Shown: positions 1-27,333 of the stretch, in pieces
How positions within the stretch are numbered: position 1 is the first letter of the stretch
Layout of the letters: each line of letters begins with the position of its first letter
NCBI GenBank assembly: GCA_038127095.1
Contig: JAYPGZ010000003.1
Location: 23,812-87,811, forward strand
Direction of reading: 5' to 3'
DNA: 64,000 nt
DNA from: Candidatus Roizmanbacteria bacterium
Lineage (GTDB): Bacteria > Patescibacteriota > Microgenomatia > UBA1406 > HO2-37-13b
Made by a program: the position numbers and the translations under genes
Notes under the pieces: generated by a model
What the model saw: the letters and a program-made list of their open reading frames with translations, nothing else
The model's database searches: none
Told to the model about the DNA's origin: nothing

Positions 1-1185
1 GCATTCACCAGTGAAGATGTTAGTTTTTATATCAAACGGAGCCCCTTCGCTACGCTCAGGATGACGAAGAGAACTTCGCTCAGAATGACTAATCGTTTTT
101 TCATAGGCTTTTTTCATTTCTCCCAAATACTGAATTTGTGAAAATCCCCCACCGAGTGTTATTCCGTAGTAAAACGACAGGATGCTATAGCAAAGTGCGG
201 TACTCGGAAGCAGTGCTCTCTCGTTTAGACCCCGTGCAATAGCGTTTGGATCGAGTGAAATTCGAACATGATTATCGGGTGAAACAAGCTCGTTACCGTT
301 AATCCATAATGGTACTCGCATGTGGTGTTTGTGTTTAATATGCCAGAAAAAATGGGTGCCGTATTCGTGCTCTTTATGCGCACCTGTTATTCCATTGAAG
401 TTTTCAACGTATCGCTCGCGTGCGATTTGATCGAAGAGCATGTTGTGAATCGATGTTTTATTAATTAGATGAACACTCAACAAAAGCTCTCTTACTACAT
501 CCTCGCAACTGACATAAATAAGATTCTTACGTTCTCCAAAGAGTTGATGCCAAATCATATTATTTATTCGGGTAAATTGATCACTCAGAGATTCAAGTTC
601 CCACACCGTTTCATCTTCTAAAAGAGTGTCGAAAAAAATCATCAAATTTTTGCGGGCTTGTTTTGATATGTTCATAAAACGAGCCATTTTTTTGTGGCTC
701 TGTAACTGTCTTTTATTAATTGGTTCATGTCCGTATACTGGTAAATTTCCAGTTTTTCGAGAAACAAATGGCATGCGAATTTCTTTCAAGTTTTTATCGT
801 GAAAAAATATTCCTCGCGGATAAGAAGAATTAGTTAATGAAATACCTGAGCACGCAAATGTAATGGTGGTGTCTTCCCTACTCGATCGTAGTATTGTGTT
901 ATTCGAAAAAAATGGATGACATAAAATTCCATGATGATCGGCACTGCTAACGAATTTGGTAGTAAGTAGAGTTTGGAGTGCGTTGTCGACTGTTATTTCA
1001 TCTAATGATGAGGTGAGTACACTCTTGAATGCATCTACGAGCTCCTGTAAGAGTTGTCCGGAAGCTTTTTCTGGATAATTATTATTTGCGTATTTCATCC
1101 ATGTCTCACTCCCCCATTCATTGTAGAATGTAGCAAAAGTAGGTTTTTTTTCAAAGACAATTTTTTTAGCGTCGGCAAGCTTCAT
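1..1185 (-). CDS. hypothetical protein, C-terminally truncated by window edge (first 395 codons present)
   Basis: Hand translation from ATG at 1185 (MKLADAKKIVFEKKPTFATFYNEWGSETW...) stays open to nt 1. It is absent from the ORF track because it runs off the edge. A TATACT box lies 8 nt upstream. No family recognised. The last visible part (SHSERSSLRHPERSEG) is encoded by GTCAT-type repeat units. Confidence 0.7.
   Translation of the reverse strand, partial: MKLADAKKIVFEKKPTFATFYNEWGSETWMKYANNNYPEKASGQLLQELVDAFKSVLTSSLDEITVDNALQTLLTTKFVSSADHHGILCHPFFSNNTILRSSREDTTITFACSGISLTNSSYPRGIFFHDKNLKEIRMPFVSRKTGNLPVYGHEPINKRQLQSHKKMARFMNISKQARKNLMIFFDTLLEDETVWELESLSDQFTRINNMIWHQLFGERKNLIYVSCEDVVRELLLSVHLINKTSIHNMLFDQIARERYVENFNGITGAHKEHEYGTHFFWHIKHKHHMRVPLWINGNELVSPDNHVRISLDPNAIARGLNERALLPSTALCYSILSFYYGITLGGGFSQIQYLGEMKKAYEKTISHSERSSLRHPERSEGAPFDIKTNIFTGEC
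41..89 (-). repeat. two GTCATYCTGAGCG-type mini-repeat units inside the edge CDS (in frame)
   Basis: Minus strand reads GTCATTCTGAGCGAAGTTCTC-TTC-GTCATCCTGAGCGTAGCGAAGGGGC. The core is the same as in the copies at 12400-12481, 16939-16976 and 25484-25612. Confidence 0.7.
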
Positions 1186-11791: not shown

Positions 11792-12370
11792 TTAATGATA
11801 TGTGTATTTTCTAATAACCGAAACAACAATGCCGGCAATTTCTAAGTTGTTTTGCGGATAAATAGGTGGGTAATTTTTATTTGCCGGATTTAGCCACACG
11901 CTATTTCCCTTTTTCTGATAATACTTTAATGTCCACTCCCCATCGACACATGCGACTACAATTTGATCATTTTTTGCGCTTTCTGTTCGTTCTACAAGTA
12001 CAATATCACCTGGATGAATGCCCGCATCGATCATAGAGTCTCCTGAAACGGTTAGCATAAAAGTTCGTTCAGGTTTTGTGACCAAATATTCATCGATCGA
12101 TACTAAGTCGTTCAATTCTTCGGTTGCCGCGGAAGGAAATCCGGCTTTTACAATGCCAGTGTTTGGAAGTGGTGCAAATAGCCGTTTAGGAATTAATTTT
12201 CCGGCAGAATCTTTTTCTAAAAACCCCTCATCAATTAATTTTTGCGCAAGTTTAAAAGCCGCATTTTTTGATGCAAATCCGAATAGTGTTGCCATTTCTT
12301 GATACGATGGCAATCGCTTGTTTACCCGGAAAAATTTTCGCATTTTTTGTACTAATTCTTGAGTATTCAT
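11792..12370 (-). CDS. lexA: LexA repressor (S24 peptidase)
   Basis: N-terminal winged-helix region; cleavage and catalytic region VKAGFPSAA...LTVSGDSMIDAGIHPGDIVLVE...VVACVDGEWTLKYY (Ser-Lys dyad context). The start is ATG at 12370; a GTG at 12397 is an alternative. Confidence 0.9.
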   Translation of the reverse strand: MNTQELVQKMRKFFRVNKRLPSYQEMATLFGFASKNAAFKLAQKLIDEGFLEKDSAGKLIPKRLFAPLPNTGIVKAGFPSAATEELNDLVSIDEYLVTKPERTFMLTVSGDSMIDAGIHPGDIVLVERTESAKNDQIVVACVDGEWTLKYYQKKGNSVWLNPANKNYPPIYPQNNLEIAGIVVSVIRKYTYH

Positions 12371-12399
12371 ATGTTTGTGCTGAGAATGAAAAATCACCC

Positions 12400-12481
12400 G
12401 AGATTTCTCGTCCTCGCGTACGCTCGTCCTCGAAATGACAGAGCTGAGATTTCTTGGTCGTTGTTACTCTCTCGGAATGAC
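12400..12481 (-). repeat. two tandem GTCATTYCGAG...GAAATCTC mini-repeat units in the lexA 5' leader
   Basis: Minus strand: GTCATTCCGAGAGAGTAACAACGACCAAGAAATCTC (12446-12481) and GTCATTTCGAGGACGAGCGTACGCGAGGACGAGAAATCTC (12400-12439). Confidence 0.75.
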
Positions 12482-12512
12482 AAACGTCGTGCCCCTTTTA
12501 TCGAACAAAATC

Positions 12513-12541
12513 AGTATAGTGAACGATTGTTCACTTGTCAA
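12513..12541 (-). promoter_or_regulatory. lexA promoter: TTGACA-17-TATACT
   Basis: On the minus strand, TTGACA (12541-12536), an exact 17-nt spacer, then TATACT (12518-12513). Confidence 0.75.
12518..12535. promoter_or_regulatory. SOS (Cheo-type) box, GAAC-N4-GTTC palindrome, inside the lexA promoter spacer
   Basis: AGTGAAC-GATT-GTTCACT is a perfect 7+7 inverted repeat. It matches the Gram-positive LexA operator core GAAC-N4-GTTC. Confidence 0.75.
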
Positions 12542-16938: not shown

Positions 16939-16976
16939 GAGATTTCTCACTTCACTAACACTCCGTTTGAAATGAC
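16939..16976 (-). repeat. single GTCATTTC...GAAATCTC mini-repeat unit between convergent genes
   Basis: Minus strand: GTCATTTCAAACGGAGTGTTAGTGAAGTGAGAAATCTC. Confidence 0.7.
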
Positions 16977-23760: not shown

Positions 23761-23846
23761 CTCGCGGAGGCCCGTCATGACCTTGTCCCACCGTTTTGGC
23801 AAAGCCAAAGCCGGCGTGACTCCCTCCGGTCATGCCACCCGCTCGC
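23761..23846. repeat. GC-rich structured intergenic element, degenerate GTCAT-type
   Basis: An island of high GC in an AT-rich spacer. It contains the palindrome GTCATGAC, a second GGTCATGCC, and the hairpin TTGGC-AAA-GCCAA. Confidence 0.5.
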
Positions 23847-23931: not shown

Positions 23932-24918
<987 letters not shown>

Positions 24919-25012
24919 CTATCGACTTGTATGGTTTTATATAGTTAGTCCTCTTGACTTTTATTCTAGGAAAATTTACCCTGAGTATAGTTATAAGTTA
25001 AATAAATGCACT

Positions 25013-25178: not shown

Positions 25179-26105
25179 CTAAACGGCATGCCATGTAATG
25201 GCAGAGTTGGTTTTCATAAAGGTGTATTGCCTTTTAGCGTATTGGATTTCTGCAGTAATCCACAGAGCGATCATTTCTTCTTCTGAAATTTCTTTACTTA
25301 GGAATTGAATAATTTGCTTATACCCAATGGTTTGTAGGCCTGGATCTTCTCGTTTATACCCCATCGACAGAAGGTTGCGAGTTTCTTCAATAGCTCCTGC
25401 TGCAAGTCGTGCACGTACCCTTTTCTCAATGGTAGCACGGAGTTTTTCATCATCTGCAAAACGGAGACCGATAATCTCTGTATGAGATTCCGAAATAAAT
25501 TCGGGATGACGAGTAAGGTTGTCATCCTGAGGGATCCGCCGGCTGGCGGAGACCGAAGGATCTCGGTGTGGAGTTTGAGATTCTTTTCCGCCAGCAGGTA
25601 GTTTAGAATGACTCAATATTTCAATCCTCCTAATAAGTCTTCTTGGATTATTTTTATCCGAATTGTTCATACTATTAAATACGTCATAATCTATATCCAT
25701 AAGTCGCTTTTGCAAAACCTCCAGAGGTGCCTTATTTAGCTCCTTACGTAAATTCCAGTCAGGCCCGATTAATTCTGTTTCAAAACCATATAGAAGATTT
25801 TTGATATATAAATATGTGCCCCCGACAATAATGGGTGTTTTGCCACGAGTGAAAAGCTCCTTAATAACAGTCCGTGCATAATGTGCGTACTCGCTTGAAG
25901 AAAAGGGTGTATTGGGCTCTACAACGTCATACAGCCATACGGGAATATCGATTAGTCTTTCTTTGCCCGTTACCACATCGAGATGTTTATATATTTGGCG
26001 AGAATCGGCATTTATAAGTTCCCCGTTATGTTCAAGTGCAAGCTTGCGGGCATAAGAAGTTTTCCCTGTTGCTGTTTGGCCAGTTATAACAATGAGTTTA
26101 TTCAT
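25179..26105 (-). CDS. miaA: tRNA dimethylallyltransferase (i6A37 synthase) with 43-codon repeat-derived insertion
   Basis: P-loop MNKLIVITGQTATGKTS, INADSRQIYKHLDVVTGK, and PIIVGGTYLYIK. An internal segment (SHSKLPAGGKESQTPHRDPSVSASRRIPQDDNLTRHPEFISES) is encoded by three mini-repeat units. Confidence 0.92.
   Translation of the reverse strand: MNKLIVITGQTATGKTSYARKLALEHNGELINADSRQIYKHLDVVTGKERLIDIPVWLYDVVEPNTPFSSSEYAHYARTVIKELFTRGKTPIIVGGTYLYIKNLLYGFETELIGPDWNLRKELNKAPLEVLQKRLMDIDYDVFNSMNNSDKNNPRRLIRRIEILSHSKLPAGGKESQTPHRDPSVSASRRIPQDDNLTRHPEFISESHTEIIGLRFADDEKLRATIEKRVRARLAAGAIEETRNLLSMGYKREDPGLQTIGYKQIIQFLSKEISEEEMIALWITAEIQYAKRQYTFMKTNSAITWHAV
25484..25612 (-). repeat. three GTCAT-type mini-repeat units (direct, inverted, direct) inserted in frame in miaA; 129 nt
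   Basis: On the miaA sense strand: GTCATTCTAAACTACCTGCTGGCGGAAAAGAATCTC (25612-25577), inverted unit GAGATCCTTCGGTCTCCGCCAGCCGGCGGATCCCTCAGGATGAC (25564-25521), and GTCATCCCGAATTTATTTCGGAATCTC (25510-25484). Confidence 0.8.
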
Positions 26106-26971: not shown

Positions 26972-27310
26972 TTATATTACTGAACTTCCGTTTGGAGTAG
27001 ACTCAGGCATTTGGAGTGGAATTGGTTTTTCAGCAGAATCAGCAGCCAAAAACATTCCATTTGAAACTCGACCCATCATTTTTCGAGGTTCCAGATTAAC
27101 AATAAATACGTATTTATTATTTACAAAGTCGCTCGGTTCATAGTAGGCTTGTAGACCCGTTAAAATTTCAACCGTTCCCCAATCCTCACCAAAATCGACA
27201 GTTAATGCAATTAGTTTTTCGGATCCTTCTACTTTTTCCGCAGTCATAACCTGCCCTACGCGCAGATCGGCTTTTGCAAAATCATCAAAACTACAGATTG
27301 GTTTTTTCAT
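26972..27310 (-). CDS. tRNA-binding domain protein (CsaA/EMAP-II-like OB fold)
   Basis: FAKADLRVGQVMTAEKVEGSEKLIALTVDFGE...NLEPRKMMGRVSNGMFLAA. Confidence 0.85.
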   Translation of the reverse strand: MKKPICSFDDFAKADLRVGQVMTAEKVEGSEKLIALTVDFGEDWGTVEILTGLQAYYEPSDFVNNKYVFIVNLEPRKMMGRVSNGMFLAADSAEKPIPLQMPESTPNGSSVI

Positions 27311-27333
27311 GCATACTATTGTATCATAGGATT

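What the first reader, a model, noticed from the sequence alone, without database searches (positions are those of the whole stretch)
25484..25612. GTCAT...GAAATCTC mini-repeat family, inserted in frame into miaA and into the edge ORF
A short repeat with the core GTCATYYYGAG, usually ending in GAAATCTC or GAATCTC (unit 27-44 nt, relatively GC-rich), occurs at five loci:
- 41-89, two units
- 12400-12481, two units
- 16939-16976, one unit
- 25484-25612, three units, the middle one inverted
- a degenerate GC-rich relative at 23761-23846

Two loci lie inside protein-coding genes. In miaA the block is exactly 129 nt (43 codons). It adds SHSKLPAGGKESQTPHRDPSVSASRRIPQDDNLTRHPEFISES between otherwise ordinary MiaA sequence and introduces no stop. 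In the edge ORF the units read SHSERSSLRHPERSEG.

In both proteins the core is read in the same frame (xGT-CAT-YCN-GAR, giving H-P/S-E). That suggests either frame-selected survival of insertions or an element built to be translatable. The unit ends are complementary (ATTTC/GAAAT) and the inverted unit contains CCGCC-GGCT-GGCGG, so the elements are REP- or MITE-like and hairpin-forming. No transposase is nearby.
Basis: seen in the sequence. Interest (0 to 1): 0.6.

Follow-up and report, generated by a model that had tools for sequence, protein, structure and literature searches.

The report
REP-type hairpin repeats inside miaA
The block in miaA is a cluster of three short hairpin repeats of an already described, very widespread bacterial repeat family (the CGTC/TGTC-tagged REPs), inserted in frame into a disordered surface loop of a tRNA-modifying enzyme of a tiny-genome (CPR) bacterium; this is a known kind of selfish DNA in a new host, with an odd all-or-none pattern of conservation.

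Summary
The repeat is real. GTCATYYYGAG occurs 5 times against 0.28 expected, and the full unit pattern 6 times against 0.08. There are eight units at four loci; the fifth locus (23761-23846) is a different GC-rich palindrome.

Unit anatomy: an unpaired (T/C)GTC head, a 5-bp stem AT-YYY:RRR-AT that covaries, a GA/GA internal loop, a variable mini-hairpin (often with a GNA triloop), and an unpaired CTC(A/G)G tail.

In MiaA the cluster lies in a loop that solved MiaA structures lack. AlphaFold2 gives it pLDDT below 50, and its length ranges 19-57 aa among 98 CPR homologs. Close relatives carry 0, 1, 2 or 3 units there. A second protein (the edge ORF), GatB and a membrane protein of other low-GC (CPR-like) contigs also carry in-frame units.

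The same element occurs in more than 15 phyla, with no conserved neighbouring gene and no Rfam family. It matches the CGTC-tagged REP superfamily (Di Nocera 2013), which includes Neisseria dRS3 and the intragenic Rickettsia RPE-4 and RPE-6 and has no known transposase.

One result is odd. Units 2-3 are almost identical between lineages whose miaA differs by about 19%, yet the interior of unit 2 is wholly replaced in other lineages.

Verdict: new member of a known kind; moderate interest.

The parts
25577..25612 (-). Unit 1 in miaA, forward relative to the gene: GTCATTCTAAACTACCTGCTGGCGGAAAAGAATCTC, read as SHSKLPAGGKESQ. It is tail-to-tail with unit 2.
   Evidence: Present in the window and L001, present with a different interior in L006, and absent from L003, L004, L005 and L007.
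25521..25570 (+). Unit 2 in miaA, inverted relative to the gene, including its tail: GTCATCCTGA-GGGATCCGCCGGCTGGCGGAGACC-GAAGGATCTC-GGTGTG. Read on the gene strand as HRDPSVSASRRIPQDD.
   Evidence: DNA fold -11.1 kcal/mol, z = -2.74. The tail is defined by 41 metagenome matches. It shows 0/50 differences from L001 while the flanks differ by 19%.
25484..25510 (-). Unit 3 in miaA, forward: (C)GTC-ATCCCGAA-TTTAT-TTCGGAAT-CTC, read as RHPEFISES. It is head-to-head with unit 2.
   Evidence: In L001 and L003 the orthologous copy is a perfect cGTC / 8-bp stem / 5-nt loop / CCC tail unit. Absent from L004, L005, L006 and L007.
25179..26105 (-). Host gene miaA (tRNA dimethylallyltransferase), 308 aa. 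The repeat cluster encodes residues about 165-207.
   Evidence: Pfam IPPT 1.8e-53. The AF2 model has mean pLDDT 84.9, with 169-199 below 50, between helix 154-167 and strand 209-215. Alignments to PDB MiaA break across about 166-202.
12400..12439 (-). Intergenic unit GTCATTTCGAGGACGAGCGTACGCGAGGACGAGAAATCTC. It is the promoter-distal member of a direct pair upstream of a LexA-like gene.
   Evidence: The flanking gene is Peptidase_S24. It folds no better than shuffles.
12446..12481 (-). Intergenic unit GTCATTCCGAGAGAGTAACAACGACCAAGAAATCTC (decayed stem).
16939..16976 (-). Intergenic unit GTCATTTCAAACGGAGTGTTAGTGAAGTGAGAAATCTC, between the convergent HAD hydrolase and sortase genes.
   Evidence: DNA fold z = -1.56.
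66..89 (-). Truncated unit in the edge ORF: GTCATTCTGAGCGAAGTTCTCTTC, read as SHSERSSL.
39..65 (-). Degenerate unit in the edge ORF: GTCATCCTGAGCGTAGCGAAGGGGCTC, read as RHPERSEGA.
1..1185 (-). Edge ORF: a conserved CPR hypothetical protein, about 465 aa in full-length homologs, cut by the start of the window. The units lie in a variable site between YLGEMKKAYEKT and DIKTNIFTGE.
   Evidence: No Pfam match. 101 homologs. In alignment A2 distant homologs lack the segment and close ones carry different repeat peptides.

Best explanation
The block is a cluster of three REP-type short palindromic DNA repeats. They belong to, or are close variants of, the CGTC/TGTC-tagged REP superfamily.

**Unit anatomy**
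- an unpaired (T/C)GTC head
- a stem that opens with A-T and T-A pairs followed by three covarying pairs
- a GA/GA internal loop
- a variable mini-hairpin
- an unpaired CTC(A/G)G tail

**How it most likely works**
- The units are non-coding, non-autonomous DNA elements.
- They are spread, lost and overwritten by an activity encoded elsewhere. This activity most likely acts on the hairpin extruded from single-stranded DNA.
- Units land in intergenic spacers and in structurally permissive loops of proteins.
- Inside genes only in-frame, stop-free copies survive. These are translated into a disordered surface loop, here about 27 extra residues between a helix and a strand of MiaA.
- The same MiaA loop has been hit repeatedly in many Microgenomates lineages.
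- Turnover at a site proceeds by gain, loss or replacement of whole units rather than by point mutation.

**Shown:** the family exists, the stems covary, units are present or absent among close relatives, the insert sits in a loop, and the reading frames are intact.

**Inferred:** the single-stranded DNA mechanism, the trans-acting enzyme, that the loop is really translated, and that it is neutral for MiaA function.
For: **Family and structure**
- Motif excess in the window.
- Stem covariation: C-G 71, T-A 54, T-G 2, C-A 1 at the position the search pattern left free.
- 100 of 203 unselected units are fully complementary against 13.8 expected; maximum 25 in 1000 shuffles.
- The base before GTC is T in 96 and C in 25 of 128 units.
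- Interiors form stems far more often than their shuffles, with GAA, GCA and GGA triloops dominant. These are the d(GCGNAGC) mini-hairpin motifs known to be very stable in DNA (PMC13037366).

**Insertion and tolerance**
- Orthologous miaA sites carry 0 to 3 units.
- An intergenic spacer carries 0, 1 or 3 units, or a remnant.
- Loop length is 19-57 aa in 98 homologs, and at least 19 carry repeat-signature peptides.
- The insert is disordered in the model and absent from solved MiaA structures.
- In-frame units also occur in GatB and in a membrane protein of other low-GC (CPR-like) contigs.

**Dispersal without a linked gene**
- 41 metagenome stretches with 37-72% GC carry the unit-2 subtype.
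- No gene family is enriched within 400 bp of the units.

**Known family**
- Di Nocera et al. 2013 describe CGTC (often TGTC) heads, stems opening with AT, 8-9 bp stems, 4-5 nt loops, short unpaired tails, intragenic copies and no dedicated transposase.
- Units that fit this definition exactly occur in the fetched loci. One of them is the L001/L003 ortholog of miaA unit 3.
Against: - Most units here differ from the published definition. Their stems are interrupted by GA/GA, their loops are often 3 nt, and their tails are CTC rather than CCA.
- Tail-to-tail pairs dominate (69, against 22 head-to-head), whereas the paper reports head-to-head dimers. The naming conventions could not be compared because figures are not held.
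- No mobilising enzyme was identified, and no target-site signature could be resolved.
- Only 3 of the 8 window units fold better than shuffles.
- Units 2-3 are far more conserved than their coding flanks. This is not what a neutral selfish insert predicts, and it leaves room for a host function.
- Translation of the loop is inferred only from the intact frames.
Confidence: 0.8

Rival explanations
1. The units are functional structured RNA elements, for example mRNA-stabilising or processing hairpins or protein-binding sites in transcripts. On this view they are kept in miaA mRNA because of that role.
For: - Strong stem covariation and conserved unpaired ends.
- The unit 2-3 block is among the five most conserved stretches in a 12-kb comparison with L001, and it is the longest at 89 nt.
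- Di Nocera 2013 notes that many REPs lie downstream of genes and are plausibly transcribed.
Against: - Both orientations occur within the one miaA mRNA, and neighbouring units are mostly inverted pairs.
- There is no excess of G-U-type pairs on either strand: T-G 2 against C-A 1, and 28 against 35.
- The loops are GNA triloops, a DNA-specific stability motif.
- No Rfam family matches at gathering or permissive thresholds.
- The interior of the same unit is wholly different in L003, L005 and L006.
Confidence: 0.08
2. The units are domesticated DNA-level sites used by the host. Candidates include binding sites for a nucleoid, topoisomerase or recombination protein, or a DNA-uptake or recognition tag. 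On this view they are kept by selection rather than by mobility.
For: - Nucleotide-level conservation above that of the coding flanks in three lineages.
- The ends are conserved across phyla while the interiors vary.
- No linked transposase (PMC3733652).
Against: - Presence, absence and copy number vary between close relatives at every site examined.
- L007 has none in 15 kb.
- Many window copies are decayed.
- The same sequence in more than 15 phyla argues against a species-specific uptake tag.
- No binding protein is known.
Confidence: 0.08
3. [quoted passage not shown]
For: They are short, dispersed, multi-copy and show insertion polymorphism.
Against: - Units are 27-44 nt long. Their two ends (GTCAT... 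and ...ATCTC) are not terminal inverted repeats beyond the 5-bp stem.
- No target-site duplication was seen.
- No transposase-like neighbour in 120 loci.
- Interiors vary freely, unlike copies of one parent insertion sequence.
Confidence: 0.03
4. The 43-aa segment is ancestral MiaA sequence, and its resemblance to the other loci is chance.
For: None beyond the intact reading frame.
Against: - The segment is absent from L007 and most homologs and from solved MiaA structures.
- Motif excess over shuffles.
- The same DNA units occur in intergenic DNA and in unrelated phyla.
Confidence: 0.01

Closest known systems
CGTC-tagged REPs (Di Nocera, De Gregorio & Rocco 2013, PMC3733652), which include Neisseria dRS3 and Rickettsia conorii RPE-4 and RPE-6
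   Same: - Unpaired CGTC/TGTC head, a stem that opens with A-T and T-A pairs, a short unpaired 3' tail, and 20-40 nt size.
- Clustered in inverted pairs, present in several phyla, with copies inside genes.
- No flanking dedicated transposase (compared).
- Units that fit the definition exactly occur in the fetched loci, including the miaA unit 3 ortholog.
   Different: - Most units here have the stem interrupted by GA/GA, a variable mini-hairpin often with a 3-nt loop, and a CTC(A/G)G tail instead of CCA.
- Tail-to-tail pairs dominate.
- The host is a CPR/Microgenomates bacterium and the range exceeds 15 phyla, against the 5 reported.
- The subfamily cannot be assigned because the paper's Figure 2 is not held.
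Rickettsia palindromic elements (RPE-1 type): selfish DNA in protein-coding genes
   Same: - Palindromic repeats inserted in frame into housekeeping genes of a reduced genome.
- They are translated as extra surface segments.
[quoted passage not shown]
   Different: - From my own knowledge, RPE-1 is about 100-150 bp and restricted to Rickettsia.
- The units here are 27-44 nt, pan-bacterial, and turn over between close relatives.
GTAG-tagged REPs and REPINs with their RAYT (TnpA-REP, a Y1 HUH transposase)
   Same: - Short hairpin with a conserved unpaired 5' tetranucleotide.
- Inverted doublets.
- A proposed mechanism based on a hairpin in single-stranded DNA (PMC6006769).
   Different: - The head is (T/C)GTC, not GTAG.
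- No RAYT gene was found flanked by these units (the paper says the same for CGTC REPs).
- REP sequences are usually species-specific, whereas this one is shared across phyla.
MITEs such as the Neisseria Correia element (review PMC10969869)
   Same: Small, non-autonomous, dispersed elements that can sit inside genes.
   Different: No terminal inverted repeats or target-site duplications were seen. The units are far shorter and their interiors are not conserved.

Membership tests
CGTC-tagged REP superfamily (PMC3733652) | Short (20-40 bp) palindromic repeat present in many copies | tested here: met
   Units are 24-44 nt, with 8 in 64 kb. Excess over shuffles. Hundreds of copies in 1.27 Mb of fetched loci.
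CGTC-tagged REP superfamily (PMC3733652) | Unpaired 5' tag CGTC, often changed to TGTC | tested here: met
   The base before GTC is T in 96, C in 25, A in 5 and G in 2 of 128 units. In the window the tags are AGTC, TGTC and CGTC.
CGTC-tagged REP superfamily (PMC3733652) | [quoted passage not shown] | tested here: met
   All units read GTC-AT...AT-CTC. The three following pairs covary.
CGTC-tagged REP superfamily (PMC3733652) | Uninterrupted 8-9 bp stem with a 4-5 nt loop | tested here: inconclusive
   Met by 16 units in the fetched loci, including the miaA unit 3 orthologs of L001 and L003 (8 bp stem, 5 nt loop). Most units have 5 bp, then GA/GA, then a 1-9 bp stem with loops mostly of 3 nt.
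CGTC-tagged REP superfamily (PMC3733652) | Short unpaired 3' tail, consensus CCA | tested here: not met
   A tail is present but reads CTC in 256 of 358 paired units, followed by AG or GG (partly fixed by the search patterns). CCA tails occur only on the perfect-stem units (7 of 16).
CGTC-tagged REP superfamily (PMC3733652) | No dedicated transposase gene flanked by the units | tested here: met
   No gene family is shared by the neighbourhoods of 132 units in 120 loci apart from chance ABC ATPases. Nothing transposase-like was found among the 10 window proteins scanned near the units.
Rickettsia palindromic elements | In-frame, stop-free insertion into conserved protein-coding genes, absent from orthologs | tested here: met
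   MiaA, the edge ORF and GatB.
Rickettsia palindromic elements | Sequence membership in RPE-1 to RPE-8 of Rickettsia | not tested
   No RPE sequences were available. The link rests on the paper's statement that RPE-4 and RPE-6 are CGTC elements.
GTAG REP / REPIN-RAYT system | GTAG head and a cognate RAYT gene flanked by the repeats | tested here: not met
   The head is (T/C)GTC. No conserved neighbouring gene. Whole genomes could not be searched.
MITE | Terminal inverted repeats and target-site duplication | tested here: not met
   Comparison of filled and empty sites shows neither. The ends GTCAT and ATCTC are complementary only over the 5-bp stem.
Any Rfam RNA family | Match to a curated covariance model | tested here: not met
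   Only tRNAs and one Flavo-1 elsewhere at gathering thresholds. Nothing credible at E up to 10 over 12350-12520.

The most novel reading that the evidence does not exclude
The units are not dead insertions. On this reading a host-encoded activity shared by most bacterial phyla acts on hairpins in single-stranded DNA, without any dedicated transposase, and actively overwrites the units by cassette-like replacement between their conserved ends. In CPR bacteria this would make surface loops of housekeeping proteins such as MiaA and GatB evolve by swapping whole units. It would also explain why units 2-3 are nearly identical between lineages whose miaA differs by 19%, while other lineages have a wholly different interior in unit 2. 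Because CPR genomes hold only about 1000 genes, the responsible enzyme could be found by phylogenetic profiling.
Probability: 0.15. Interest if true: 0.7.

Novelty: new member of a known kind. Interest (0 to 1): 0.42.

Why it matters
CGTC-tagged REPs were described in 2013 in five phyla, and what mobilises them was left open. This case contributes four things:

- **Wider range.** The family extends to the Candidate Phyla Radiation and, in this scan, to more than 15 phyla. The ends are almost unchanged over genomes of 37-72% GC.
- **Natural comparisons.** Closely related genomes carry 0, 1, 2 or 3 units at the same codon of the same gene.
- **Whole-unit turnover.** Units turn over as wholes, and some are held more constant than the gene around them.
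- **A route to the enzyme.** CPR genomes are so small that comparing repeat-rich lineages with repeat-free ones (for example L007) could make the search for the responsible activity tractable.

It is also a practical warning for annotation. Peptides such as SHSE.., RHPE.., ..QDD, VIL.. and ..GMT in CPR proteins are repeat-derived loops, not domains.

Tried and rejected
- **Rfam.** A window-wide scan, 16 loci from other phyla and a permissive local scan found no family covering the units.
- **Literature by sequence.** Searching for the sequence strings returned only primers and unrelated hits. No held paper links REPs with CPR or Patescibacteria.
- **Neighbour genes.** Clustering ORFs within 400 bp of 132 units in 120 loci showed no GIY-YIG, Y1 transposase or other recurrent family. 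I had recalled a possible GIY-YIG association; it was not supported.
- **Loose scan.** A scan for GTCAT-N3...revcomp(N3)-AT alone is not specific: 13 hits against 9.6 in controls. It was dropped in favour of stricter patterns.
- **Orientation against local GC skew.** No bias, 119 against 121. The test is uninformative because units mostly come as inverted pairs.
- **Thermodynamic folding.** Only 3 of the 8 window units fold better than shuffles. The folding model has no bonus for GA tandems or GNA triloops, and several copies are decayed.
- **Target site or duplication.** Filled and empty miaA and intergenic sites are too diverged and rearranged to resolve one.
- **Locus 23761-23846.** Rejected as a family member.
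- **Viral contigs.** One match only, so there is no sign of a phage vector.
- **The repeat finder.** The default settings did not recover the family, because the interiors differ.
Full report
**Observation**

The sequence at 25484-25612 is as described. On the miaA sense strand there are three elements:
- a forward unit, GTCATTCTAAACTACCTGCTGGCGGAAAAGAATCTC
- an inverted unit, GAGATCCTTC...TCAGGATGAC
- a second forward unit, GTCATCCCGAATTTATTTCGGAATCTC

Further units lie at 12400-12439, 12446-12481 and 16939-16976, all on the minus strand. Two degenerate or truncated units lie at 39-65 and 66-89.

The motif is far above chance. GTCATYYYGAG matches 5 times against 0.28 expected. GTCAT-YYY...RRR-ATCTC matches 6 times against 0.08 in 300 Markov controls.

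It is an unrelated 86-nt GC-rich palindrome in a spacer where relatives carry other inserts.

**Anatomy**

I pooled the window with seven loci from close relatives and with 1.1 Mb fetched by pattern scans. The unit consists of:
- an unpaired head, (T/C)GTC
- a stem AT-YYY pairing with RRR-AT
- GA on each side of the stem
- a variable interior of 5-30 nt
- an unpaired tail, CTC(A/G)G. A subfamily extends the tail to CTCGGTGTG, which shows that the CACACC next to unit 2 in miaA belongs to the element.

The stem covaries.
- In 128 distinct units the one position my search pattern left free is C-G in 71, T-A in 54, T-G in 2 and C-A in 1.
- Among 203 candidate units not selected by my patterns, 100 are complementary at all three positions. 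Shuffling partners gives 13.8 expected, with a maximum of 25 in 1000 shuffles. Nine different triplets are involved.

The interiors are themselves small hairpins far more often than their shuffles. The dominant loops are GAA, GCA and GGA. The commonest interior, GCGAAGC, is the d(GCGNAGC) mini-hairpin described as extraordinarily stable in DNA (PMC13037366). Neighbouring units are mostly inverted pairs: 69 tail-to-tail, 22 head-to-head and 6 direct.

In the window itself several copies are decayed. Only 3 of the 8 fold better than shuffles as DNA.

**Host genes**

miaA (25179..26105, minus strand, 308 aa) is a clear IPP transferase. Its homologs are named Microgenomates, Roizmanbacteria or Patescibacteria, so the window comes from a CPR bacterium.

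Several results place the repeat cluster in a permissive loop.
- The cluster falls where alignments to solved MiaA structures break, at query residues about 166-202 against about 8 residues in 3d3q.
- An AlphaFold2 model has mean pLDDT 84.9, but residues 169-199 are below 50. They form a loop between helix 154-167 and strand 209-215.
- Among 98 CPR homologs this loop is 19-57 aa long. At least 19 carry peptides typical of translated units in various frames, such as RHPELDSGS, FRNKFGMT, VIPAKAVIQ, SFLRKQESR and DPRIREDD. The loop has therefore been hit repeatedly.

The edge ORF (1-1185, minus strand) is a conserved CPR protein of about 465 aa with no Pfam domain. Its units lie in a variable site that distant homologs lack and that close homologs fill with different repeat peptides.

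Other low-GC (CPR-like) contigs carry in-frame units in GatB and in a multi-pass membrane protein. There the units are read in a different frame, VIL....

The shared H-S/P-E frame in this window therefore reflects survival of tolerable translations, not a built-in frame. Read directly from the sequence, a canonical unit is open in four or five of its six frames.

**Dynamics**

At the DNA level the miaA site differs among six relatives whose miaA sequences are about equally distant from each other, 15-22%:

| Source | Units at the miaA site |
|---|---|
| Window, L001 | 1, 2 and 3 |
| L003 | 2 and 3 |
| L004 | 2, plus a remnant |
| L005 | 2 |
| L006 | 1 and 2, both with different interiors |
| L007 (outgroup) | none |

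Unit 2 keeps its ends in all six relatives, but its interior occurs in four unrelated versions. Three of these are small hairpins:
- CCGCC-AGCC-GGCGG
- CCTCC-AAA-GGAGG
- TCGCCCA-AT-GGGCGA

The interior of the window version recurs at other loci of other low-GC contigs, once with the loop flipped.

An intergenic spacer between the tRNA_bind and SIMPL genes holds 0, 1 or 3 units, or a remnant.

Where unit 2 is shared it is almost invariant.
- It shows 0/50 differences between the window and L001, and 1/50 against L004. The rest of miaA differs by 19-21%, and by 35-43% at third codon positions.
- In a 12-kb alignment with L001, only 0.6% of 50-nt windows have one difference or none. These fall in five blocks, and the longest (89 nt) covers units 2 and 3.

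This all-or-none pattern does not fit neutral decay. It fits overwriting from other copies, or selection at the nucleotide level. I could not separate these two.

**Distribution**

The pattern GTCATTYCGA-N5-30-GAGRAATCTCAG has about 7 chance matches expected by my own estimate.

- The unit-2 subtype occurs in 41 metagenome stretches of 37-72% GC.
- Viral contigs gave one match.
- No gene family recurs next to the units.
- No Rfam family covers them.

**Comparison with what is known**

Di Nocera, De Gregorio and Rocco (2013, PMC3733652) defined two REP superfamilies by their unpaired tag, GTAG or CGTC. Their description of CGTC elements is:
- the tag is often TGTC
- stems of 8-9 bp almost invariably open with complementary A and T residues
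- loops are 4-5 nt
- the unpaired tails are mostly CCA
- they occur in five phyla
- they include Neisseria dRS3 and Rickettsia conorii RPE-4 and RPE-6
- they occur inside genes, most often in R. conorii
- they have no dedicated transposase

The head and the stem-opening rule are met here. Units that fit every criterion occur in the fetched loci, including the L001 and L003 orthologs of miaA unit 3: cGTC ATCCCGAA tttat TTCGGGAT CCC.

Most units deviate in three ways: the stem is interrupted by GA/GA, the loops are 3 nt, and the tail is CTC. I could not see the paper's figure, so I cannot say whether this subtype was already catalogued.

I therefore file the finding as a new member of a known kind, with possibly a variant architecture. 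It works like the Rickettsia palindromic elements, that is, by in-frame insertion into housekeeping genes of a reduced genome.

**Mechanism and rivals**

Best supported (0.8): these are non-autonomous REP-type DNA elements, spread and overwritten in trans. The activity probably acts on a hairpin in single-stranded DNA, which the DNA-type loops and the absence of a G-U excess suggest. Inside genes only in-frame copies in permissive loops survive.

| Rival | Confidence | Main objection |
|---|---|---|
| Functional RNA hairpin | 0.08 | Both orientations occur in one mRNA, there is no wobble signal, and interiors are replaceable |
| Domesticated DNA site for a host protein | 0.08 | Favoured only by the unusual conservation; disfavoured by presence/absence variation |
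| MITE | 0.03 | No terminal inverted repeats, no target-site duplication, units too short |
| Ancestral MiaA sequence | 0.01 | Refuted |

**Limits**

- Only 64 kb of this genome was available, with flanks of 20 kb or less from relatives. No genome-wide census, orientation analysis or search for a transposase elsewhere in the genome was possible.
- The two collection scans used patterns that fix parts of the unit. The covariation statistics were therefore taken only from positions or units that the patterns did not constrain.
- Translation of the loop is inferred from intact frames in seven independent assemblies, not observed.

Noticed in passing
window 12521-12532, with the gene at 11792-12371 (-): GAACGATTGTTC is a GAAC-N4-GTTC palindrome resembling a Gram-positive-type LexA (Cheo) box. 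It lies about 150 nt upstream of a LexA-like Peptidase_S24 gene. The two repeat units at 12400-12481 sit between the box and the start codon, so they may lie in the 5' leader of the SOS repressor gene.
   Followed up: partly
window 23761-23846: An 86-nt GC-rich imperfect palindrome (GCTCGCGGAGGCCCGTCATGACC...GGTCATGCCACCCGCTCGC) sits in an AT-rich spacer upstream of the GDP-mannose-dehydratase-like gene 23938..24918. It is not a member of the repeat family. Relatives carry unrelated GC-rich inserts (L001, L004) or a canonical unit (L005 at 12151) in the same spacer.
   Followed up: partly
window 25486-25574 compared with L001: Units 2 and 3 of the miaA cluster form the longest of only five near-identical blocks in a 12-kb alignment whose mean divergence is 11.7 differences per 50 nt. 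The other blocks are 27247-27312, 24928-24979, 24313-24362 and 23936-23990, and they were not examined.
   Followed up: partly
L140/L144 (GatB) and L130 (489-aa membrane protein): Other low-GC (CPR-like) contigs carry in-frame units of the same family, read in a different frame. GatB has VILIRQPAEKDLG and also a glycine/glutamate-rich low-complexity insert. A multi-pass membrane protein with no Pfam hit has SVILERSDRIS followed by VILNRRLAVKDLG.
   Followed up: partly
MiaA homologs P0015-P0115 (alignment A1, columns 58-157): Roizmanbacteria-type MiaA proteins have a second hypervariable site just after the TGKD motif, with inserts of up to about 90 aa. Some contain repeat-like peptides such as DLPAGRQET, which resembles KLPAGGKES of window unit 1. 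The window protein has no insert there.
   Followed up: no
L003 / L043 (contig CAYPSA010000002.1): The public record is titled 'uncultured Gammaproteobacteria bacterium', yet the contig carries the same CPR-type gene order around miaA as the window and an 81% identical MiaA. The label is probably a binning or taxonomy error.
   Followed up: no
L127 (Chryseobacterium sp. PMSZPI chromosome), positions 603, 1081 and 1558: Three identical units with identical flanks are spaced 477-478 nt apart, which suggests a tandem repeat of about 478 bp that includes a unit.
   Followed up: no
L147 7928-9542 and upstream: A low-GC contig holds a dense array of different CGTC-type units: perfect 8-bp stems with CCA or CTA tails, alongside GA-interrupted ones. 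Translated, they give VILEERSDDRIPLSFPRRRESIQMDPRSGSGMTNLRSRMTNSVIPNINSVILNGVKDLG in front of a large ORF. Several subfamilies therefore coexist in one genome.
   Followed up: no
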